A DNA stretch of 40,791 nt, taken from NCBI GenBank assembly GCA_001784735.1, contig MFSB01000008.1, positions 1-40,791 on the forward strand, written 5' to 3'. Numbering within the stretch: the first letter of the stretch is position 1; every line of letters begins with the position of its first letter. Shown here in pieces: positions 3,871 to 39,017 of the stretch. A model generated the notes under the pieces. It had not been told where the DNA came from and did no database searches. It saw nothing but the letters and a program-made list of their open reading frames with translations. This DNA comes from Candidatus Moranbacteria bacterium RIFCSPLOWO2_12_FULL_48_12. GTDB lineage: Bacteria; Patescibacteriota; Minisyncoccia; Moranbacterales; UBA1568. Made by a program: the position numbers and the translations under genes.

Positions 3871-5781
3871 ATGCCGCAAACATTCTATATCGAATCCGAC
3901 GAAGAAATCATTTCTGTCATCGGACGGTTGCGCAAATCTTCTGCGGAAGAGAATGTATTTGTTTTTCCCAAGCGGGCTCTGGTGCTCCAGAGCATCATCA
4001 ACCTCCGTCTTTTTCAGCGCGAGGCGGAGAAGCTAGGAAAGAAAATCATTATTGTCAGCCAAGATGAAGTAGGAAAGATGCTCGCCGAGAAAGCAGGGAT
4101 CGAGACGGAAAGCTATTCGGAAGATTTTTCCAAAAAAACGCCGCACTTGGAACTGACTGCTCAGGAAGAGAACGCTCCAGTACAGTCGATCGCAAAACCA
4201 GTGGCGCCAGGAACGCTCCGCTCCGATGCTATCGGAAGCAGCAATTTTTATGCGACGGAAGCCGCACCGCAGATTTCTCGTGAGTCTCTGCGCGCCGCAG
4301 AACTATCAGTTTCTTCGCTCCGTGTTCGCAACGCAACGCCCCCGAAACTTATCAGTTTGAATTCCAAGCGTTTTGAAGGAGTAGGCATAGCGCCTCAGGC
4401 GATACGCACTCCTGTCCAAGCGCCCGCACCAGCAATCGTACCTGTGCCGTCTTTGCCATCCGCGCGGTCATTTACCGTGGAGTCAAAGAGCACATCGCAG
4501 GGGCAGCGCGACGAACGTTTGAAAAATTTCTATGGCAATGTTCGAAAAGCGGCGGTTGTCGCTGTTCTGAAACAGGATCCGGGACAGAGAGGAGCTGTGC
4601 CGATTACTGGCAAAAAAGCGCACAAAATTTTCTTTCTTCTGGGCGGCATATCGCTTCTGTCTCTTGTCGGTGTAACGCTTTTCCTCTTTCTTCCGAAAGC
4701 GGAAATTCAAGTGACGCCGTATGCGATCACGCAAACGATGGAAGCGGAGATGGATGGCCGATCTGATATTTCCGCCTCAGGCGACGGGACTCTCTCTGTG
4801 CGTATGCTCGAGAAGGAAAAAGAAGTGACTCTCACTTTTGCGACGACTGGCAAATCGGGAGGAACGAATCAGAAAGCGCGCGGGACAGTGGTTATTGAGA
4901 ATAATTACAGCACTGATGCGCAGCCTCTGGTTGCGACGACGCGCCTGGAAACCGCGGATGGCAAGCTCTTTCGCCTAGTGAGCGGCGTAGTGGTTCCGGG
5001 GATGACGAATACAGGCGGCAAAAAAGAGCCGGGAGCGATCGAGGCCAGTGTGATGGCTGACCAGGCCGGTCCGGAATATAACATTGATGCGACGACATTC
5101 ACTATTCCAGGCTTCAAAGGCGGGCCGAAGTACGCTGCTTTTTCTGCCCGATCGGCCAAAGCGATGATAGGCGGCGGAAGCGGCGGCCTATCGGATGTGG
5201 CCGTGGTGGCCAAAGTGGATCTCGAGACAGCCGAGCGCGAAGCGAAAGAAAAAGCCAAAGAGGATTTCTTGGGCGAGATGCGCAGCGATCTGTTGCCGGA
5301 TGAGAAGGTGCTCGACGAAGAGGTAGAGGTGGCGCTCCTGGCACCGGCCACTCTGCCCTCGGTTGGCACAGTAGCCAACACTTTTGATTATAAAGCCACT
5401 TTCAAGGTGCGGGTATTCATTTTTTCAGAAAAAGCTGTCAAGGAGAGGGTTGAGGCGATGAGCGAGAAAAATCTAGAGGGGATGAAATTCAAACCGGTAT
5501 CTTCGGATATCACCTATAGCGATTCCGTACCGAATTTTTCCGATGGCACGCTCCGCCTCAAAGCGCATGCGCTCCTCGCGATGGAGTCGGATATCGACCG
5601 TGACAAATTGCGGGGAGCGCTCTTGGGAAAAAGCGAGGATGGTATCAAGCAGGTGCTGGAGAGTTTTCCGGAAGTAAAAAAGATAAAAGTGGTTTTCCAT
5701 CCGCAGCTATTCATGAAAAGCATCCCCAGTTCCAGTGATCGCGTTTTCGTTCTTCTTGAGCCGGGTGAGAAGATGGAGTAG
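3871..5781 (+). CDS. Hypothetical single-pass membrane protein (636 aa)
   Basis: Long ORF with a charged N-terminal domain and an Ala/Pro/Ser-rich linker. It has one hydrophobic helix (IFFLLGGISLLSLVGVTLFLFL) and a C-terminal domain of about 360 aa. No family recognised by eye. Confidence 0.75.
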   Translation: MPQTFYIESDEEIISVIGRLRKSSAEENVFVFPKRALVLQSIINLRLFQREAEKLGKKIIIVSQDEVGKMLAEKAGIETESYSEDFSKKTPHLELTAQEENAPVQSIAKPVAPGTLRSDAIGSSNFYATEAAPQISRESLRAAELSVSSLRVRNATPPKLISLNSKRFEGVGIAPQAIRTPVQAPAPAIVPVPSLPSARSFTVESKSTSQGQRDERLKNFYGNVRKAAVVAVLKQDPGQRGAVPITGKKAHKIFFLLGGISLLSLVGVTLFLFLPKAEIQVTPYAITQTMEAEMDGRSDISASGDGTLSVRMLEKEKEVTLTFATTGKSGGTNQKARGTVVIENNYSTDAQPLVATTRLETADGKLFRLVSGVVVPGMTNTGGKKEPGAIEASVMADQAGPEYNIDATTFTIPGFKGGPKYAAFSARSAKAMIGGGSGGLSDVAVVAKVDLETAEREAKEKAKEDFLGEMRSDLLPDEKVLDEEVEVALLAPATLPSVGTVANTFDYKATFKVRVFIFSEKAVKERVEAMSEKNLEGMKFKPVSSDITYSDSVPNFSDGTLRLKAHALLAMESDIDRDKLRGALLGKSEDGIKQVLESFPEVKKIKVVFHPQLFMKSIPSSSDRVFVLLEPGEKME

Positions 5782-6255: not shown

Positions 6256-8142
6256 ATGACACAAGGTATGCGAGCAGGCGACATACGTAAGGCTTATCTG
6301 AATTTTTTTGCTGAAAGGGGACACAAAATTGTCCCTTCAGCTTTGCTTGTTCCGGAAAATGATCCAACGACGCTTTTTACCGGATCGGGCATGCAGCCGA
6401 TCGTTCCCTATCTCTTGGGCGAACCGCATCCGCTCGGCACCCGCATCATGGATTCGCAGAAATGTTTCCGGGCGGGAGATATCGAAGAAGTCGGCGACAA
6501 TCGCCACACGACATTTTTCGAGATGCTCGGGAACTGGTCTTTCGGGGACTATTTCAAGCAGGAGCAGATCACTTGGATGTGGGAATTTCTGACCGAGAAG
6601 ATGGGACTCGATCCACAGCACCTCTTTTTCACCTGTTTTCGCGGCAATGCGGAATTAGGCATACCCAAAGACACTGAGTCGGCTTTGCTGTGGCAGAAAC
6701 TTTTCGCAGCCAAGGGTATCGATGCGAAAATCGGAGAGAATCCCGAAACAGACGGGATCCGCGAGGGCGAGAAAATATTTTATTATTCCGAAAAGAAAAA
6801 CTGGTGGAGCCGTTCTGGGATGCCGGGCAATATGCCTCTCGGCGAGCCGGGCGGGCCGGATACGGAGATGTTCTGGGACTTCGGCGCGGAGCATGATTTC
6901 CACAGAGAGTCGCAGTGGAAAGATGCGCCGTGCCATGTGAACTGCGATTGCGGTCGGTTTATGGAAATCGGCAACAATGTCTTTATGGAGTACCGGAAAA
7001 CAGCCGTCGGCTTCGAGAAGCTCAAGCAGAAAAACGTGGACTACGGCGGAGGGCTGGAACGCCTGATAGCGGCCAAGAAGAACGATCCGGATATGTTCCT
7101 TGGCGATATATTCGATACATTGCGCGAAACATTGAAAAAGCTTTCCGGAAAAAAATACGGGGAGGATTCGAAACAGACTTTCGCTTTTCGGGTGATAATG
7201 GATCATATGCGCGCCGCGACGTTCCTGATCGCGGACGGCGTCCTGCCATCCAATACCGATCAAGGCTATGTCTTGCGGCGGCTCTTGCGGCGAGCCGTGC
7301 GCTTCGCGGACATGCTCGGTATGGTGCCGGGATCGCTTTCTCTCTGTGTAGCAGCTGTAGTTTCGGAGTATCAGGAAGCCTATCCATACCTGATTGAAAA
7401 GAAAGGCTTTATTGTCTCCGTTATCGGAAATGAAGAAGCTAAATTTCGCGAGACTTTGGCGCGCGGGATGAAGGAACTTGAGAAGCGCTTGAGCGAAGCG
7501 GCGCTCAACGGCAAGGACGCTTTTGAATTGTTTTCGACGTACGGGTTTCCGCTGGAAATGACTGAGGAGATCGCCAAAGAAAAAGGCGTAACGATCGAGC
7601 GCGAAGAATTTCAGAGGGAATTTACGAAACATCAGGAGCTTTCCCGGACGGCGAGCGCGGGGAAATTCAAAGGAGGACTGGCGGATCATAGCGCCAAAGT
7701 TATCGCTTTTCATACTGCGACGCATCTGATGCTTGCCGGACTGCGGAAATATCTGGGACAGGATGTCCATCAGGCCGGATCCAATATCACCGAAGAACGA
7801 ACTCGGTTTGACTTCACGCATCCGGAGAAAGTGAGCCGTGAAGTACTCGACAAGGTAGAGATCTACGTGAATGAGGCTATCGAAAAGAAATGCGCCATGA
7901 TTACGGAGGTGATGGAAAAAAATAAGGCCAAAGAGGCTGGCGTCGAGGGCAGTTTCTGGGAGAAGTACCCGGACAAGGTCACGGTATATAAAGTGAAGGC
8001 GGATGATGGCACCGTTTATTCTCAGGAATTGTGTGGCGGCCCGCACGTTGCTAACACAGAAGATATAAAAGGAAGATTCAAGATTATTAAAGAAGAAGCC
8101 TCGTCCGCCGGTGTCCGCCGTATCAAAGCAATTTTAGAATAA
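6256..8142 (+). CDS. alaS: Alanine--tRNA ligase, short form (628 aa)
   Basis: N-terminal IRKAYLNFFAERGHKIVPSALLVP..DPTTLFTGSGMQP..FEMLGNWSFGDYFK. Editing-domain His/Cys motifs HTATHLM and CGGPHV are present. The ORF ends soon after the editing domain, so a C-Ala domain seems absent. Confidence 0.95.
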   Translation: MTQGMRAGDIRKAYLNFFAERGHKIVPSALLVPENDPTTLFTGSGMQPIVPYLLGEPHPLGTRIMDSQKCFRAGDIEEVGDNRHTTFFEMLGNWSFGDYFKQEQITWMWEFLTEKMGLDPQHLFFTCFRGNAELGIPKDTESALLWQKLFAAKGIDAKIGENPETDGIREGEKIFYYSEKKNWWSRSGMPGNMPLGEPGGPDTEMFWDFGAEHDFHRESQWKDAPCHVNCDCGRFMEIGNNVFMEYRKTAVGFEKLKQKNVDYGGGLERLIAAKKNDPDMFLGDIFDTLRETLKKLSGKKYGEDSKQTFAFRVIMDHMRAATFLIADGVLPSNTDQGYVLRRLLRRAVRFADMLGMVPGSLSLCVAAVVSEYQEAYPYLIEKKGFIVSVIGNEEAKFRETLARGMKELEKRLSEAALNGKDAFELFSTYGFPLEMTEEIAKEKGVTIEREEFQREFTKHQELSRTASAGKFKGGLADHSAKVIAFHTATHLMLAGLRKYLGQDVHQAGSNITEERTRFDFTHPEKVSREVLDKVEIYVNEAIEKKCAMITEVMEKNKAKEAGVEGSFWEKYPDKVTVYKVKADDGTVYSQELCGGPHVANTEDIKGRFKIIKEEASSAGVRRIKAILE

Positions 8143-25808: not shown

Positions 25809-26483
25809 GTGTCAATAAGAAAAATTAATTTCGCAAGTGGCGAATTTTATCATATTTACAATAGGGGAACCGACAAGCGGAACATCTTTTCCGATTTGGC
25901 AGATCAAGAGCGCTTTATTCAGAGTATGAAAGAATTCAATGCGCTCAATCCGATTGGCAGTATTTATGAACATTGCCGTTCTCAATTTGGAAGCAAGGCT
26001 TCCAAAAATGGTAAAAAGGACAAAAGGCTTGTAAATATAGTGGCTTATTGCCTGAATCCAAATCACTACCATTTTATATTGGAACAGGTTTCAGAAAAAG
26101 GCATAGAGAAATTTATGCAAAGGCTTGGTACGGGATATAGCAAATACTTCAATAACAAACACGAGAGATCTGGTGGACTATTTGAGGGAAAATTTCAAGC
26201 AGTACATATCGACTCAAACGAATATCTTCTGCATGCGAGTGTTTATGTCAATCTCAACGACCGTGTTCATGGATTTGGAAGCAAGGCTTCCAAATCTTTA
26301 GGGAAGATGTTGATTAAGAGCAGATCCAGTTGGGATGAGTATATGGGAAATGCTAAAGAAGGGTTTTGTACAAAAGACAATATTCTTGGTCAATTTAAAA
26401 ATGTTAAAGAATACAAAACTTACGCGGGAAATGTGCTGGTAGGTATACATGAAAGAAAATTTTTAGCACAAGAGAAATTTTAA
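25809..26483 (+). CDS. IS200/IS605-type Y1 (HUH) transposase, REP-associated tyrosine transposase (RAYT)-like
   Basis: FYHIYNRGTDKRNIF, HUH motif NPNHYHFIL, LFEGKF, and Tyr motif ASVYVNLN. Flanked by REP hairpins and containing two more. Confidence 0.82.
   Translation: MSIRKINFASGEFYHIYNRGTDKRNIFSDLADQERFIQSMKEFNALNPIGSIYEHCRSQFGSKASKNGKKDKRLVNIVAYCLNPNHYHFILEQVSEKGIEKFMQRLGTGYSKYFNNKHERSGGLFEGKFQAVHIDSNEYLLHASVYVNLNDRVHGFGSKASKSLGKMLIKSRSSWDEYMGNAKEGFCTKDNILGQFKNVKEYKTYAGNVLVGIHERKFLAQEKF
25986..26006. repeat. REP hairpin copy 5, in frame inside the transposase ORF (encodes FGSKASK)
   Basis: Starts exactly at codon 60 of ORF 25809..26483. Confidence 0.9.
26274..26294. repeat. REP hairpin copy 6, in frame inside the transposase ORF (encodes FGSKASK)
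   Basis: Starts exactly at codon 156, the same phase as copy 5. Confidence 0.9.
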
Positions 26484-35426: not shown

Positions 35427-35476
35427 GATACCCGCCCGTACCGAACAGTACGTTCGGGCGGGCATGATAAGTGATA
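35427..35476. repeat. Upstream hairpin module, second copy (see 38..82)
   Basis: GATACCCGCCCG..CGGGCGGG (8-bp outer stem, inner CCGAAC/GTTCGG) followed by the exact 14-mer CATGATAAGTGATA. Confidence 0.5.
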
Positions 35477-36482: not shown

Positions 36483-36520
36483 AAAAAACCCCCTGACTTG
36501 ACGTAAAGGGTTTTTTCTTT
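36483..36520. terminator. Terminator-like hairpin after ftsX
   Basis: AAAAAACCC ... GGGTTTTTT with an A-run and a T-run on either side, so it could act in both directions. Confidence 0.55.
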
Positions 36521-36571
36521 TATTCTCAAATATCAAGTGGTTATTTACCAACGAGATTAAGGAGATTCCTC

Positions 36572-37198
36572 ATGCAACCAGGACTACGGGCAATTCTCGA
36601 GCGTACTCCCGCGCAAAGCGAGGGGTTTATCTTCAGTCGTGTGCGTTCGCGTTACCCTTACGGCTCTGACGTGTACCGATCCGTAGTAAAAGCCTATGAG
36701 TCGATGCAAGAGGCTCACAATGGCGATACCCGGCAGAGCGGCGAAGCATATGAAGAGCACCCCAAAGCCGTAGCATCATTTGTCATCGAGATGTACGGTT
36801 TGCACCGGCCGCCAGTCATCATCGCCGCTCTTGATCACGATATGCCGGAGGACAAACCTGAGATCTGGCCAATCGAACGGATGGAAGGAACTTTCGGAAG
36901 AGACGTGGCTCTCATCGTCGATTGGGGCAATATGCGGCGTTTCAATCATATTGAAAATAAGTTGCTCGCGCGAGAAGCTTACTGTCTTAACTTTTTCCGC
37001 GACGCGCCCAAACATGCCGCGGTATGGAAGCTGGGTGATGTGTGGCATAATGGGCATACGCTCTGGACTCCGACAAACGAGAAGATTTGTGAGAAAGCGC
37101 TGGAAATCGAGCGCTTTTGGTTACCTCTCGCGTACCGTTACGACATATATGTCGAAGAAATACAAGAAACGCTGGTAAAGCTGCGTAACGGATGCTGA
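36572..37198 (+). CDS. HD-domain (p)ppGpp-hydrolase-like protein (RelA/SpoT hydrolase domain only)
   Basis: EAHNGDTRQSGEAYEEHPKAVA....AALDHDMPED matches the SpoT/RelA HD pattern H.GQ.R.SGEPY..HP..VA...AALLHD..ED. AAGGAG lies upstream of the ATG. Confidence 0.78.
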   Translation: MQPGLRAILERTPAQSEGFIFSRVRSRYPYGSDVYRSVVKAYESMQEAHNGDTRQSGEAYEEHPKAVASFVIEMYGLHRPPVIIAALDHDMPEDKPEIWPIERMEGTFGRDVALIVDWGNMRRFNHIENKLLAREAYCLNFFRDAPKHAAVWKLGDVWHNGHTLWTPTNEKICEKALEIERFWLPLAYRYDIYVEEIQETLVKLRNGC

Positions 37199-37459
37199 AC
37201 GAGGTGGGTGCGTCTCAAATAAATGGAGAAGTGGATTCGTCTCATCGCGACGCCGTAGCCAGAAAGTGGTTGCGGCGCGTGTTTTTTTCTCCTGCCCGAA
37301 ATGCTTTTGTTGGTTGAATAGATGAAGGCTTTTTTGAATTATGAGGTTATAAATATGCTTTAACAGAAGGAAATATCGTTGCAGGCGGGCTTGAAAAAAA
37401 TCTGTTTTCCTGTAGAATAGGGGAGTGTTAATGAGATTTTTGATTGAGGAATTCAGTAT

Positions 37460-37714
37460 ATGAAAGGTTACATATATATTTTACTCAGTTTAAAAGATTA
37501 TAAGACGTATACGGGATCTACAGATAATCTTGAAAAGCGATTAAAAGAACATCATAATGGGAAGTGCAAAGCGACAGTAAATCGTAGACCGCTTCAATTG
37601 ATATATTCTGAGAAAATTGATAGTTTGGATGAAGCTAGAAAAAGGGAGAAATATTTTAAAACAGCTTCAGGTAGAAGAGCTTTAAAGAAAATTTTTGAGG
37701 ATTTCAAAAAATGA
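37460..37714 (+). CDS. GIY-YIG nuclease domain protein (84 aa)
   Basis: GYIYILLS..YTGSTDNLEKRLKEHHNG......R.P..LIYSE......A.KREKYFK. AT-rich. The stop codon abuts the first base of tRNA-Gln. Confidence 0.88.
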   Translation: MKGYIYILLSLKDYKTYTGSTDNLEKRLKEHHNGKCKATVNRRPLQLIYSEKIDSLDEARKREKYFKTASGRRALKKIFEDFKK

Positions 37715-37785
37715 TGGGGAATGGCCAAGTGGTAAGGCAATGGGTTCTGGTCCCATGATCGGGGGTTCGAATCCCTCTTCCCCAG
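37715..37785 (+). tRNA. tRNA-Gln (anticodon CUG)
   Basis: Hand-folded. Acceptor UGGGGAA/UUCCCCA with U1-A72 and G73. D arm GCC-AAGUGGUAA-GGC. Anticodon arm AUGGG-UUCUGGU-CCCAU. T arm GGGGG-UUCGAAU-CCCUC. No encoded CCA. Confidence 0.9.
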
Positions 37786-37819
37786 CTAGTAGTTTTGGTT
37801 AAGAAATGATAATTCTGTA

Positions 37820-37955
37820 GCCAAGCGGCCCGCCTCGACTCGCTAGAAGCTTGTCTTCAGCGAGGTGGGTAAGGCAGTGGGTTCTGGCCCGTCTCGACGA
37901 GGCGTTGAGCCGAGGTGGATCCCACCATGCGAAGGTTCGATCCCTTCCTCCCCAG
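37820..37955 (+). pseudogene. Second tRNA-Gln(CUG)-like sequence lacking a contiguous 5' acceptor strand and carrying two related hairpin insertions
   Basis: GCCAAGCGG-[41 nt]-TAAGGC-A-GTGGG-TTCTGG-[32 nt]-T-CCCAC-CATGC-GAAGG-TTCGATC-CCTTC-CTCCCCA-G. Stem changes relative to the first tRNA-Gln are compensatory. Both insertions begin CCCG(C/T)CTCGAC and end CGAGGTGG. Confidence 0.6.
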
Positions 37956-37974
37956 CTGATGAATTTAAAATTCT

Positions 37975-38520
37975 ATGAAATCATTTTCTCGAGATATTTT
38001 GATTGTTGATTTTGAAGTCACAAAGTTTGATATTGAAAAAGGTGAGCCTATTCAAATAGGCCTTATCCTTTTAGATAAGAATACTTTAGAAACCAAGTGG
38101 TCGTATAGTTCTTGGATACAGCCAAAACAGCCAGTTTCTTTAGAGCAAGCAGGTCTGCGTTGGGCAAGCCTCGATCAAAATGATTTGGAAGAAATAAAGA
38201 AAGCCCCAGACCTGGTAACTGTTGCGAAAAAAATTGTAAAATTGTTACCGGAGAAATACTTTCTCTGCGCTTGGAATGCCACATTTGATTTTTGTTTCTG
38301 GGATAAACTTCTCAAGACGGTTGGTATGCGAACCAAAACTGCTAATATCTTGGATCTCTGGACATTGGCACAGGTAAAATTGCTGAGCGATGAGAATTAC
38401 ACTGGAGACTACAAATCAGAATCTGTTTTTCAGTATTTTGGTGCCAAGCCAAGAACCAAACACTATGGCATCACTGATTGTGAAATTGAAGCAATGCTTT
38501 TGAGGAAACTATTGCAATAA
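37975..38520 (+). CDS. DEDDh-type 3'-5' exonuclease (DnaQ-like fold)
   Basis: Exo motifs LIVDFEVT (DxE), AWNATFDFCFW (NxxFD) and HYGITDCE (Hx4D). AT-rich. Confidence 0.78.
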   Translation: MKSFSRDILIVDFEVTKFDIEKGEPIQIGLILLDKNTLETKWSYSSWIQPKQPVSLEQAGLRWASLDQNDLEEIKKAPDLVTVAKKIVKLLPEKYFLCAWNATFDFCFWDKLLKTVGMRTKTANILDLWTLAQVKLLSDENYTGDYKSESVFQYFGAKPRTKHYGITDCEIEAMLLRKLLQ

Positions 38521-38606
38521 GAAAAGAAAAGGAGGGCAGGTATCTTTTTCAAGAAAAAATAATTTTTTGGATTCGATTATTGCATAATAAGGTGGCCAGT
38601 TCTCGT

Positions 38607-39017
38607 ATGAAAATACTCTTTGTTTGCGAAGGCAATATCAACCGCAGCCAGATGGCAAGCACTCTCTTCAAGGCGCTCGTTCCCGAAGCTGAGGTACTTT
38701 CGGCCGGCGTATATGCGGATCATCCCGGCGAATTTCTTTCCGCGGTATCGGAGGGATCCATCGCTGCGATGAAGGAGCTGGGCTTCGATATGAGCTCAAA
38801 CATTATCACGCAACTGACCAGAGAAATGGTGGAGGCAGCCGACAAGGTTATTCTTGTCGGTTCTGTGCCGGGCGGATCCATACCCGAATATCTCAAGAAT
38901 TCTGTGAAGCTCGAGACATGGGACGTGCCGGATCCCGGTTATGGTCAGATATCCATCGAAGCGGCCAGGGATATGATATTGAAAGACGTGAAGCAGCTCG
39001 CAGAGAAGTTGAAATAG
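38607..39017 (+). CDS. Low-molecular-weight phosphotyrosine phosphatase / ArsC-like protein
   Basis: MKILFVCEGNINRSQMA (CX5R-S P-loop) and a distal WDVPDP. The start is taken at ATG 38607. Confidence 0.82.
   Translation: MKILFVCEGNINRSQMASTLFKALVPEAEVLSAGVYADHPGEFLSAVSEGSIAAMKELGFDMSSNIITQLTREMVEAADKVILVGSVPGGSIPEYLKNSVKLETWDVPDPGYGQISIEAARDMILKDVKQLAEKLK

What the first reader, a model, noticed from the sequence alone, without database searches (positions are those of the whole stretch)
37419..37955. Possible split of an older tRNA-Gln gene by a cassette carrying a GIY-YIG nuclease gene plus a replacement tRNA-Gln
The interrupted tRNA-like sequence lacks a contiguous 5' acceptor strand. Its 3' strand CUCCCCA needs xGGGGAG. 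Exactly AGGGGAG followed by UG (tRNA positions 8-9, as in the intact copy: UGGGGAA-UG-GCC) occurs at 37419..37427, about 390 nt upstream. It includes the compensating G7 that would pair with C66. The intervening 37428..37819 contains only the 84-aa GIY-YIG ORF and the intact tRNA-Gln, which starts on the base after the nuclease stop codon. One reading is a nuclease-associated mobile cassette that inserted between nucleotides 9 and 10 of a resident tRNA-Gln gene and brought its own functional copy. Free-standing GIY-YIG homing endonucleases are known in phage tRNA gene clusters. A caveat is that this ORF is only a bare catalytic domain with no obvious DNA-binding module. A 9-nt match could also be chance; I estimate roughly a one-in-a-hundred event in a 400-nt search space.
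Basis: inference. Interest (0 to 1): 0.6.

Follow-up and report, generated by a model that had tools for sequence, protein, structure and literature searches.

The report
Nuclease–tRNA cassette displacing native tRNA-Gln
A small nuclease gene carrying its own glutamine tRNA gene has pushed aside and disabled the bacterium's original copy of that tRNA gene, and the same kind of nuclease-plus-tRNA arrangement turns up next to tRNA genes in many other bacterial groups.

Summary
The central idea is supported. An 84-aa GIY-YIG gene plus an intact tRNA-Gln(CUG) sits in front of a disabled older tRNA-Gln(CUG). The older copy is 66 of 66 identical to nt 7-72 of the intact tRNA of congeners. It lacks nt 1-6 and carries two GC-rich insertions, in the D loop and the anticodon loop.

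The proposed split point and 5' fragment are not supported. G7-U8-A9 are still joined to nt 10, so the break is at 6/7. AGGGGAGTG is part of a promoter motif. Seven congeners have that motif upstream of intact tRNA-Gln genes, and four have it upstream of an unrelated protein gene.

The same genome holds like cassettes at tRNA-Gln(UUG) and tRNA-Ser(CGA). Of 80 loci fetched by protein similarity alone from several phyla, 72 have a same-strand tRNA gene abutting the ORF. Of the same 80, 57 carry partial tRNA duplicates, usually with GC-rich palindromes in the D loop.

I read it as a tRNA-gene-resident, homing-endonuclease-like element that brings a replacement tRNA or tRNA part. Nuclease action and the role of the hairpins are inferred. 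Nine literature searches found no description of this arrangement.

The parts
37251..37286 (+). Intrinsic-terminator-like hairpin and T run ending the upstream HD-domain gene. Conserved in G023.
   Evidence: Terminator scan; alignment with G023.
37291..37389 (.). 99-nt insertion relative to G023. Its GC-rich ends (CCTGCCCG ... CAGGCGGG) are of the same type as the hairpin insertions.
   Evidence: Alignment of the window with syntenic G023.
37391..37418 (+). Sigma-70-like promoter, TTGAAA-16 nt-TAGAAT. In congeners this is the promoter of the tRNA-Gln(CUG) locus. I infer that here it drives the ORF and the tRNA.
   Evidence: Promoter scan, 10 of 12 matches; 98% identical over 40 nt in G023.
37419..37427 (+). 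It is the promoter-proximal part of the conserved motif GTAGAATAGGGGAGT.
   Evidence: The motif lies upstream of intact tRNA-Gln in 7 congeners and upstream of an unrelated protein gene in 4.
37460..37714 (+). GIY-YIG nuclease gene (84 aa plus stop) of the stand-alone UPF0213/Slx1-like type. It has no DNA-binding module.
   Evidence: Pfam PF01541, 1.6e-16. PDB 1ZG2 at 7.7e-14 and 1YWL at 3.7e-11. dN/dS 0.09 against G003.
37715..37785 (+). Intact tRNA-Gln(CUG) carried with the ORF. Its allele differs from the genus-native one.
   Evidence: ARAGORN; Rfam 62.7 bits; 61 of 74 aligned columns identical to the native allele.
37786..37816 (+). 31-nt spacer between the cassette tRNA and the remnant. 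No match in relatives.
37817..37955 (+). Displaced copy of the genus-native tRNA-Gln(CUG). It holds nt 7-72, lacks nt 1-6 and is interrupted twice.
   Evidence: 66 of 66 tRNA bases identical to the G023 tRNA. Not detected by ARAGORN or Rfam as it stands.
37829..37869 (+). Insertion 1: a 41-nt GC-rich hairpin in the D loop, after nt 18 (position +/-2 nt).
   Evidence: Absent from G023. Folds at -9.9 kcal/mol as DNA, z -2.66. The same hairpin type sits at the same tRNA-Gln position in L035, L045 and L084. A 97% identical copy lies on contig C28.
37888..37919 (+). Insertion 2: a 32-nt GC-rich insertion in the anticodon loop, after the base that follows the anticodon.
   Evidence: Absent from G023. 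Folds only weakly (z -0.33 as DNA, -0.90 as RNA). Related sequences occur in G006, G011 and G015.

Best explanation
The region is a replacement cassette. A stand-alone GIY-YIG nuclease gene is fused head-to-tail to a complete tRNA-Gln(CUG) gene. The pair lies between the locus promoter and the former resident tRNA-Gln(CUG).

The resident copy lost its first six bases at the cassette's right junction. It also carries GC-rich palindromic insertions in its D and anticodon loops. It cannot form an acceptor stem and is dead as a tRNA, so the cassette tRNA supplies the function.

The cassette belongs to a widespread family of UPF0213-type GIY-YIG genes that live in or against tRNA genes. Family members either duplicate part of the tRNA or bring a whole one, so the tRNA function survives the insertion.

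The following steps are inferred, not shown:
- The nuclease starts the event by cutting tRNA-gene DNA.
- Repair from an element-bearing copy, using tRNA homology, installs the ORF. This resembles intronless homing.
- The promoter now transcribes ORF and tRNA together.
For: Polymorphism at one site.
- G023 is syntenic (HD-domain gene, terminator, promoter, tRNA-Gln, ABC transporter) and has no ORF.
- Six more congeners have the promoter followed by an intact tRNA within 27-98 nt.
- Three other congeners (G003, G009, G011) carry a homologous ORF before tRNA-Gln(CUG), preceded by a 5' tRNA fragment.

Remnant identity.
- 66 of 66 bases match the native allele.

Recurrence in the same genome.
- Contig C47: native tRNA-Gln(UUG) nt 1-21, ORF, a foreign tRNA-Gln(UUG), then native nt 5 to the 3' end.
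- Contig C18: a tRNA-Ser(CGA) 5' fragment, ORF, then the full tRNA-Ser.

Family-wide evidence. The 80 loci were fetched by a peptide pattern alone.
- 72 of 80 have a same-strand tRNA gene abutting the ORF. Five are cut by a contig end and 2 have none.
- 99 of 102 tRNAs in these loci are on the ORF strand.
- In 29 of the 48 loci with a downstream tRNA, the ORF's stop codon lies inside the tRNA, ending at nt 10 or nt 23.
- 57 of 80 loci hold partial tRNA duplicates.
- By my arithmetic, chance adjacency is about 0.002 per ORF (44 tRNAs in 0.99 Mb).

The ORFs are kept by selection and track their targets.
- dN/dS is 0.07-0.22 where synonymous sites are not saturated.
- tRNA identity clusters on the protein tree: 31 label changes against a shuffled mean of 54.7, and 0 of 200 shuffles as low.
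- The C47 ORF groups with one from another candidate phylum, support 100/99.
- 11 distinct tRNA-Gln(CUG) sequences occur among 14 loci of the genus.
Against: - No nuclease activity or target site is shown.
- The 84-aa protein has no DNA-binding module. It scores below the cut-off of NCBIfam's group I intron endonuclease model (26.6 against 56.05 bits).
- An intact tRNA next to the ORF would itself be a target. How the element's own locus would be protected from the nuclease is unexplained.
- In G009 and G011 the arrangement has persisted while third codon positions diverged at 34 of 83 sites. The hairpin-bearing fragment is 93 of 96 identical. This looks like a long-kept functional unit rather than a fast homing cycle.
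- No cassette-free allele was seen in the four runs laid.
- The window's layout (ORF, tRNA, then a 5'-truncated old copy) is not the commonest one.
- Kin share labels, so the tree clustering is partly vertical descent.
Confidence: 0.7

Rival explanations
1. The cassette was inserted between nt 9 and 10 of the resident tRNA-Gln, and AGGGGAGUG at 37419-37427 is its severed 5' end.
For: - The 9-mer joined to the remnant without its two insertions scores as tRNA-Gln in ARAGORN.
- On contig C47 of the same genome a true 5' fragment of the native tRNA (nt 1-21) does lie just upstream of the ORF. The layout is therefore possible in principle.
- A chance match is about 0.01 per 400 nt (my arithmetic).
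Against: - The remnant keeps G7-U8-A9 joined to nt 10.
- The 9-mer is part of GTAGAATAGGGGAGT. That motif precedes intact tRNA-Gln genes in 7 congeners and an unrelated protein gene in 4.
- Position 1 would be A opposite A72.
- The -10 hexamer ends one base before the 9-mer. A tRNA starting there could not be fully transcribed from this promoter (inference from usual promoter geometry).
Confidence: 0.05
2. No mobility. The tRNA-Gln was duplicated in tandem and one copy decayed. The GIY-YIG gene is an ordinary cellular gene that happens to be co-transcribed with tRNAs, for example a tRNA-gene or RNA maintenance factor.
For: - Strong purifying selection on the ORFs.
- Long persistence of the G009/G011 arrangement.
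- The family is a minimal Slx1-like domain without targeting modules.
Against: - The two tRNA copies are different alleles (61 of 74 columns), and the remnant equals the native allele of congeners.
- The ORF is present in some congeners and absent in others at one promoter.
- Three cassettes in one genome lie at three different tRNAs, each with partial duplicates at the junctions.
- Close protein relatives sit at different tRNA types and in different phyla.
Confidence: 0.15
3. The hairpin-bearing tRNA copies are not debris. They are working parts of the element: a structured RNA or DNA module that guides, regulates or protects the nuclease gene.
For: - G009 against G011: the fragment with two hairpins is 93 of 96 identical, with changes only in the hairpin loops. 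Third codon positions of the ORF differ at 34 of 83 sites.
- The L048 and L053 hairpins are identical, while 40% of third positions differ.
- 37 of 65 internal insertions lie in the D-loop zone, most of them exactly 13 nt before the anticodon.
- Hairpin type tracks tRNA type across phyla.
- The window's layout (no 5' acceptor strand, hairpins in the D and anticodon loops) recurs in L081 and L111.
Against: - In the window the hairpin-bearing copy lies downstream of the tRNA, not before the ORF.
- Insertion 2 folds no better than shuffles.
- The same hairpin family also lies at non-tRNA sites.
- The genome encodes two Y1-transposase-like proteins that could move REP-like hairpins independently.
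- No RNA data were available.
Confidence: 0.2
4. The interrupted copy is a functional intron-containing or split tRNA gene whose insertions are removed from the RNA.
For: - The insertions sit in loops. One follows the base after the anticodon, which is the usual intron position in archaea and eukaryotes (recalled).
- The tRNA-derived parts carry no substitutions.
Against: - Nt 1-6 are absent and nothing nearby can pair with the 3' acceptor strand.
- ARAGORN in intron mode finds nothing. Rfam finds no intron or ribozyme.
- In every locus examined, hairpin-bearing copies lie beside an intact copy.
- A full tRNA-Gln(CUG) is present 31 nt upstream.
Confidence: 0.02

Closest known systems
Free-standing GIY-YIG homing endonucleases of phage T4, for example SegB in the tRNA gene cluster (PMC2330249; title and abstract seen in the listing)
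   Same: A GIY-YIG nuclease gene stands free among tRNA genes. It is inherited together with flanking tRNA sequence, with no intron involved.
   Different: - As I recall, SegB-type enzymes carry DNA-binding modules. This protein is a bare 84-aa UPF0213/Slx1-like domain.
- Here the ORF is fused to, or inserted in, a single tRNA gene, with partial tRNA duplication and loop hairpins.
- Phage relatives are few (20 of 50,697 records) and distant (at most 42% identity). The one inspected is not next to a tRNA.
Mobile endonuclease ORFs in fungal mitochondria that insert into a gene and bring a replacement copy of the displaced gene end, for example the Allomyces atp6 case, with GC-rich double-hairpin elements nearby (recalled from memory; no paper read here)
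   Same: An endonuclease ORF comes with a replacement gene part. The displaced native part is left as a remnant. GC-rich hairpin elements are associated.
   Different: Those cases are protein-coding genes in organelles. This one is bacterial tRNA genes, in several phyla.
Insertion sequences in rRNA genes of CPR bacteria that encode homing endonucleases (PMC11270868; passages read)
   Same: - Stable-RNA genes of small-genome bacteria carry endonuclease ORFs. GIY-YIG ORFs are reported there at several rRNA sites.
- This genome has two GIY-YIG ORFs inside its 23S rRNA gene.
   Different: - The word tRNA does not occur in that paper's main text.
- Its authors judged GIY-YIG to lie outside spread by homing.
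- rRNA insertions do not need a duplicated gene part.
Integrative elements that target tRNA genes and restore the tRNA 3' end (recalled)
   Same: A tRNA gene is the target, and the element carries the tRNA part needed to keep the gene whole.
   Different: - Those elements use integrases and are kilobases long.
- None of the five neighbouring proteins scanned against Pfam (36572-39017) is an integrase.
- The element here is about 0.3-0.4 kb and most often duplicates the 5' part.
REP/REPIN palindromes moved by RAYT (Y1) transposases (PMC3733652 and PMC8049555; abstracts seen in the listing)
   Same: Short GC-rich palindromes are dispersed in the genome and inserted without target duplication. 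The genome encodes Y1-transposase-like proteins.
   Different: The heads are CCYGCC rather than GTAG or CGTC. The hairpins occupy a strikingly constant position in tRNA D loops across phyla.

Membership tests
GIY-YIG nuclease superfamily (Pfam PF01541) | Profile match above the curated cut-off over the whole catalytic domain | tested here: met
   60.8 bits against a cut-off of 22.6; residues 2-72 match profile positions 1-74 of 78.
GIY-YIG nuclease superfamily (Pfam PF01541) | Conserved Tyr, Tyr/Gly, Arg, His and Glu of the active site | tested here: met
   Y6, Y17, G19, R27, H31 and E63 are invariant in the 6-sequence alignment A1. Their catalytic roles are recalled, not tested.
GIY-YIG nuclease superfamily (Pfam PF01541) | Nuclease activity | not testable with these tools
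   Needs purified protein.
UPF0213 / Slx1-like stand-alone GIY-YIG | Closest solved relatives are UPF0213 proteins, and there is no auxiliary domain | tested here: met
   1ZG2 at 7.7e-14, 1YWL at 3.7e-11, SLX1 at 2e-4. The protein is 84 aa and nearly all of it is covered by the domain.
Homing endonuclease gene (free-standing) | Present in some related genomes and absent in others at the same site | tested here: met
   Seven congeners have the same promoter followed by an intact tRNA and no ORF. G023 is syntenic on both sides.
Homing endonuclease gene (free-standing) | Site-specific cleavage of the allele that lacks the gene, and immunity of the carrier allele | not testable with these tools
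The carrier locus holds an intact tRNA, so immunity is unexplained.
Homing endonuclease gene (free-standing) | DNA-binding module joined to the catalytic domain, as in I-TevI or Seg enzymes | tested here: not met
   Only the catalytic domain is present. TIGR01453 scores 26.6 bits against a cut-off of 56.05 and matches residues 2-37 only.
Intron in a tRNA gene (group I or archaeal type) or split tRNA | The gene is complete once the intervening sequence is removed, and a recognisable intron structure is present | tested here: not met
   Nt 1-6 are absent. ARAGORN in intron mode finds nothing. No Rfam intron or ribozyme was found in 36500-38500. A bulge-helix-bulge motif was not formally searched for.
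REP/REPIN-like palindromic elements (for the two insertions) | Short GC-rich palindromes in many dispersed copies, with a Y1 transposase in the genome | tested here: met
   22 strict hairpins with CCYGNC heads were found in the genome, several of them at non-tRNA sites. There are two PF01797 hits, one in the window at 26013-26249.
REP/REPIN-like palindromic elements (for the two insertions) | GTAG or CGTC head, as in the two large REP superfamilies | tested here: not met
   The heads read CCYGCC. The criterion is taken from the abstract of PMC3733652 (listing).
tRNA-targeting integrative element | Integrase gene within the element | tested here: not met
   None of the five neighbouring proteins scanned against Pfam (36572-39017) is an integrase.

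The most novel reading that the evidence does not exclude
UPF0213-type GIY-YIG genes, their partial tRNA copies and the CCYGCC...GGCRGG hairpins together form a previously undescribed class of mobile element that is specific for tRNA genes. In this reading a nuclease with no DNA-binding domain finds its target through the tRNA-derived, hairpin-bearing module. That module would act as a guide or scaffold RNA, or the target would be the cloverleaf or R-loop structure of tRNA-gene DNA. The hairpin-bearing copy in the window would then be such a module, not debris.
Probability: 0.2. Interest if true: 0.9.

Novelty: new variant of a known kind. Interest (0 to 1): 0.72.

Why it matters
It would explain several things:
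- why small GIY-YIG genes of unknown function (UPF0213) are scattered through many bacterial genomes;
- why tRNA-Gln alleles are so diverse within one genus (11 sequences among 14 loci);
- where the many tRNA fragments and GC hairpins in tRNA leaders of small-genome bacteria come from.

It also gives a concrete, testable case of a minimal nuclease domain with apparent target specificity. Three carriers are named as cultured strains in their record titles: two Algoriphagus strains and a Marixanthotalea strain (tRNA beside the ORF). Experiments are therefore feasible.

For annotation, it warns that tRNA-like pieces beside such ORFs are parts of an element. They are not independent pseudogenes or assembly errors.

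Tried and rejected
- ARAGORN in intron mode and at lowered thresholds on 37301-38000 gave only spurious low-score calls over the remnant.
- Rfam at a permissive E-value found no intron, ribozyme or other family in 36500-38500. It also found none in the roughly 110-190-nt T-loop insertions of relatives. My impression that those resemble a small group I intron core rests on inspection only.
- I tested whether the last base of the promoter motif covaries with nt 9 of the downstream tRNA. Four of the first 4 genomes agreed, but G005 and G008 broke the pattern, so I dropped the idea.
- I looked in this genome for a tRNA whose only copy carries a hairpin, which would suggest splicing. None was found. 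No tRNA-Tyr was detected at all, which may reflect the 94.8% completeness.
- Sequencing runs: no RNA holder was listed. The four DNA runs laid showed the same arrangement and no cassette-free allele. The two joints reported came from other tRNA-Gln genes.
- Insertion 2 did not fold better than shuffles.
- Nine literature searches found nothing on GIY-YIG genes with partial tRNA duplication in bacteria. The library is limited to open-access papers and preprints, and supplements were not consulted.
- No structure prediction or complex prediction was run. The sequence matches to solved UPF0213 structures made them unnecessary.
Full report
**What is in the window.**

Reading 37000-38400 with ARAGORN, Rfam, ORF listing and Pfam gives the following order of features:
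- the end of an HD-domain gene and a terminator-like hairpin (37251-37277);
- a promoter-like site, TTGAAA-16 nt-TAGAAT (37391-37418);
- the 9-mer AGGGGAGTG (37419-37427);
- an 84-aa GIY-YIG ORF (37460-37714; PF01541 at 60.8 bits);
- an intact tRNA-Gln(CUG) starting on the next base (37715-37785; Rfam 62.7 bits);
- a 31-nt spacer;
- a tRNA-Gln-like sequence ending at 37955 that neither ARAGORN nor Rfam recognises.

Contigs from other public runs bridge all the junctions, so the arrangement is real DNA. The window is contig C8 of a 0.99-Mb, 55-contig genome. That genome holds 44 ARAGORN tRNAs, including one other tRNA-Gln, with anticodon UUG, on contig C47.

**What the interrupted copy is.**

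Congeners carry an intact tRNA-Gln(CUG) that I call the native allele. It is found in G009, G011 and G023. The interrupted copy matches nt 7-72 of that allele at 66 of 66 positions.

Three differences remain:
- nt 1-6 are missing;
- a 41-nt GC-rich hairpin sits in the D loop (37829-37869);
- a 32-nt GC-rich insertion follows the base after the anticodon (37888-37919).

G023 lacks both insertions. Insertion 1 folds well (z -2.66 as DNA). Insertion 2 does not beat shuffles. The cassette tRNA is another allele, identical to the native one in 61 of 74 aligned columns.

**The proposed 5' fragment.**

The remnant keeps G7-U8-A9 joined to nt 10, so the break is at 6/7, not at 9/10.

The 9-mer is the tail of the motif GTAGAATAGGGGAGT.
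- In G023, which is syntenic on both sides, the motif lies 44 nt upstream of a complete tRNA-Gln.
- The same holds in G053, G004, G005, G014, G008 and G006.
- In G010, G007, G055 and G064 the motif lies upstream of an unrelated small protein gene.

It is therefore a promoter-proximal sequence of this genus, not a piece of tRNA.

An apparent match between its last base and nt 9 of the downstream tRNA failed in G005 and G008.

The 9-mer joined to the remnant without its two insertions does score as tRNA-Gln, with an A1-A72 mismatch. That test is weak, because this joined sequence differs from the native tRNA at only two bases.

It is beside the point once the motif is seen to be conserved for another reason.

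**The cassette idea holds and recurs.**

At this promoter, seven congeners have no ORF.

G003, G009 and G011 have a homologous ORF (66-70% amino-acid identity) before tRNA-Gln(CUG). In each, a 5' fragment of the tRNA precedes the ORF and carries hairpins at the same D-loop position.

In the window's own genome:
- Contig C47 reads native tRNA-Gln(UUG) nt 1-21, ORF, a foreign tRNA-Gln(UUG), four bases, then native nt 5 to the 3' end. Both native pieces carry a 34-nt hairpin.
- Contig C18 reads a tRNA-Ser(CGA) fragment, ORF, then the full tRNA-Ser.

Of 7 intact GIY-YIG paralogues in the genome, 3 abut tRNAs. Two lie inside the 23S rRNA gene, each bracketed by an 18-19-bp inverted repeat. Two stand free.

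**A family across phyla.**

A scan of one genome per species, using a peptide pattern from the protein alignment alone, returned 80 loci. By their record titles they come from Patescibacteria-type lineages, Bacteroidota, Ignavibacteriota, Balneolota, Omnitrophota, Planctomycetota and others.

Adjacency to tRNA genes:
- 48 loci have a same-strand tRNA starting within -30 to +60 nt of the ORF stop.
- 10 more have one ending within 200 nt upstream.
- 14 that my script left unclassified have a tRNA overlapping the computed ORF ends, or a frameshifted ORF with a tRNA just downstream.
- That makes 72 of 80.
- One further locus (L072) abuts a near-complete tRNA copy.
- 5 loci are cut by a contig end within about 60 nt of the ORF, and 2 have room but no tRNA.

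Other family features:
- 99 of 102 tRNAs in these loci are on the ORF strand.
- In 19 loci the stop codon ends at tRNA nt 10 and in 10 loci at nt 23, so the ORF borrows conserved tRNA bases for its stop.
- 57 of 80 loci hold partial duplicates of the neighbouring tRNA.
- Two polarities exist: 5' fragment, ORF, tRNA; and tRNA, ORF, 3' fragment.

**The hairpins.**

In partial copies I counted 65 internal insertions of 10 nt or more.
- 37 lie in the D-loop zone, most of them exactly 13 nt before the anticodon.
- 9 lie further 5'.
- 7 lie in the anticodon stem or loop.
- 12 lie in the T arm.
- 53 of the 65 have GC of at least 0.6.

Their ends read CCYGCC...GGCRGG, and the subtype tracks the tRNA type. 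The window's insertion 1 is of the type seen at the same place in tRNA-Gln fragments of L035, L045 and L084.

The window's layout (no 5' acceptor strand, hairpins in the D and anticodon loops) recurs in L081 and L111.

Hairpins of the family also lie at non-tRNA sites:
- window 35431-35462;
- a 99-nt insertion with like ends at 37291-37389, which is absent from G023.

The genome encodes two Y1-transposase-like proteins, so a REP-like, independently mobile origin is possible.

Yet they are not simply decaying. Between G009 and G011 the fragment with its two hairpins is 93 of 96 identical. Third codon positions of the ORF differ at 34 of 83 sites, and the downstream flank is 9 of 21 identical. 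What they do remains open.

**How it most likely works.**

Shown:
- presence in some congeners and absence in others at one site;
- a replacement tRNA or tRNA part at every well-resolved junction;
- purifying selection on the ORFs (dN/dS 0.07-0.22 where not saturated);
- clustering of tRNA type on the protein tree (31 changes against a shuffled mean of 54.7, 0 of 200 shuffles as low);
- a clade of 16 ORFs (support 100/99) spread over Ala, Thr, Val, Ile, Lys and Phe tRNAs, several of which show closely similar D-arm sequences (by inspection);
- cross-lineage relatives, such as the C47 ORF with one from another candidate phylum.

Inferred:
- The UPF0213/Slx1-like nuclease (PDB 1ZG2 and 1YWL) cuts tRNA-gene DNA.
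- Repair from an element-bearing copy uses tRNA homology, which installs the ORF and duplicates or replaces tRNA sequence.
- The locus promoter then transcribes ORF and tRNA together.

Unexplained:
- how the carrier's own intact tRNA escapes cutting;
- how an 84-aa domain finds its target.

**Comparison and novelty.**

The nearest known things are:
- free-standing GIY-YIG endonucleases such as T4 SegB (abstract);
- mitochondrial endonuclease ORFs that bring a replacement gene end (recalled);
- endonuclease-bearing insertions in CPR rRNA genes (passages, where tRNA is not mentioned);
- integrase elements that restore tRNA ends (recalled);
- REP/RAYT palindromes (abstracts).

Nine searches of the held library found no account of GIY-YIG genes with partial tRNA duplication in bacteria. 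The library is partial and supplements were closed, so I claim only that it was not found there.

I file it as a new variant of the free-standing homing-endonuclease kind. A defining feature of classical members, the DNA-binding module, was tested and not met.

Noticed in passing
window 37291-37389: A 99-nt insertion relative to syntenic G023 lies between the terminator and the promoter. Its ends, CCTGCCCG ... CAGGCGGG, resemble the small hairpins. It may be a larger member of the same palindromic element family.
   Followed up: partly
window 35431-35462: A 32-nt perfect-stem GC hairpin lies just upstream of the FtsX-like gene. It is of the same type as the D-loop hairpins of Ala and Thr fragments in other phyla. 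No tRNA-like flanks were seen here.
   Followed up: partly
window 26013-26249: An ORF matches Pfam Y1_Tnp (PF01797, 29.6 bits). It is a possible REP-associated or IS200-like transposase that could move the hairpins. A second hit is on contig C36.
   Followed up: no
G000 contig C31, about 4740-4955 and 6996-7205 (L033): Two intact GIY-YIG ORFs lie inside the 23S rRNA gene on its strand. Each is bracketed by an 18-19-bp perfect inverted repeat.
   Followed up: partly
L017 (G006) about 370-580; L003 (G009), reverse strand, about 1860-2037; L011 (G014) about 450-590; L109 about 1850-1985: Downstream of intact tRNAs lie 3' tRNA remnants whose T loop holds a conserved insertion of about 110-190 nt. 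It contains a shared GGTCGGG...CCCG segment and ends in GAGCAGTGAGTGT. Some versions carry a paired ACTAGAGGGC / GCCCTATAG motif that looks like a group I intron P7. Rfam finds nothing.
   Followed up: partly
G000 contigs C49:2108-2222, C24 upstream of 2357, C49 upstream of 926, C12 upstream of 19191: ORF-less 5' tRNA fragments with GC hairpins sit in the leaders of several tRNA genes (Arg CCG, Arg TCG, Arg GCG, Asn). This is as if the nuclease ORFs had been lost after insertion.
   Followed up: partly
G000 contig C1:13600-14650 (minus strand): The tRNA cluster holds a duplicated 5' half of a tRNA-Met before the intact gene. Between tRNA-Ala and tRNA-Ile it holds an unassigned piece ending in a T arm, acceptor strand and CCA.
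   Followed up: no
whole genome G000: Neither ARAGORN nor the Rfam tRNA model found a tRNA-Tyr. The genome is 94.8% complete, so the gene may be unassembled.
   Followed up: partly
L035-L114: In 29 of the 48 loci with a downstream tRNA, the GIY-YIG reading frame runs into the tRNA. It stops at the conserved TAG at tRNA nt 8-10, or at a stop codon ending at nt 23.
   Followed up: yes
window 37975-39017: An RNase T-like exonuclease gene and a low-molecular-weight phosphatase gene lie between the remnant and the ABC transporter gene. In G023 the tRNA is followed directly by the transporter gene.
   Followed up: no
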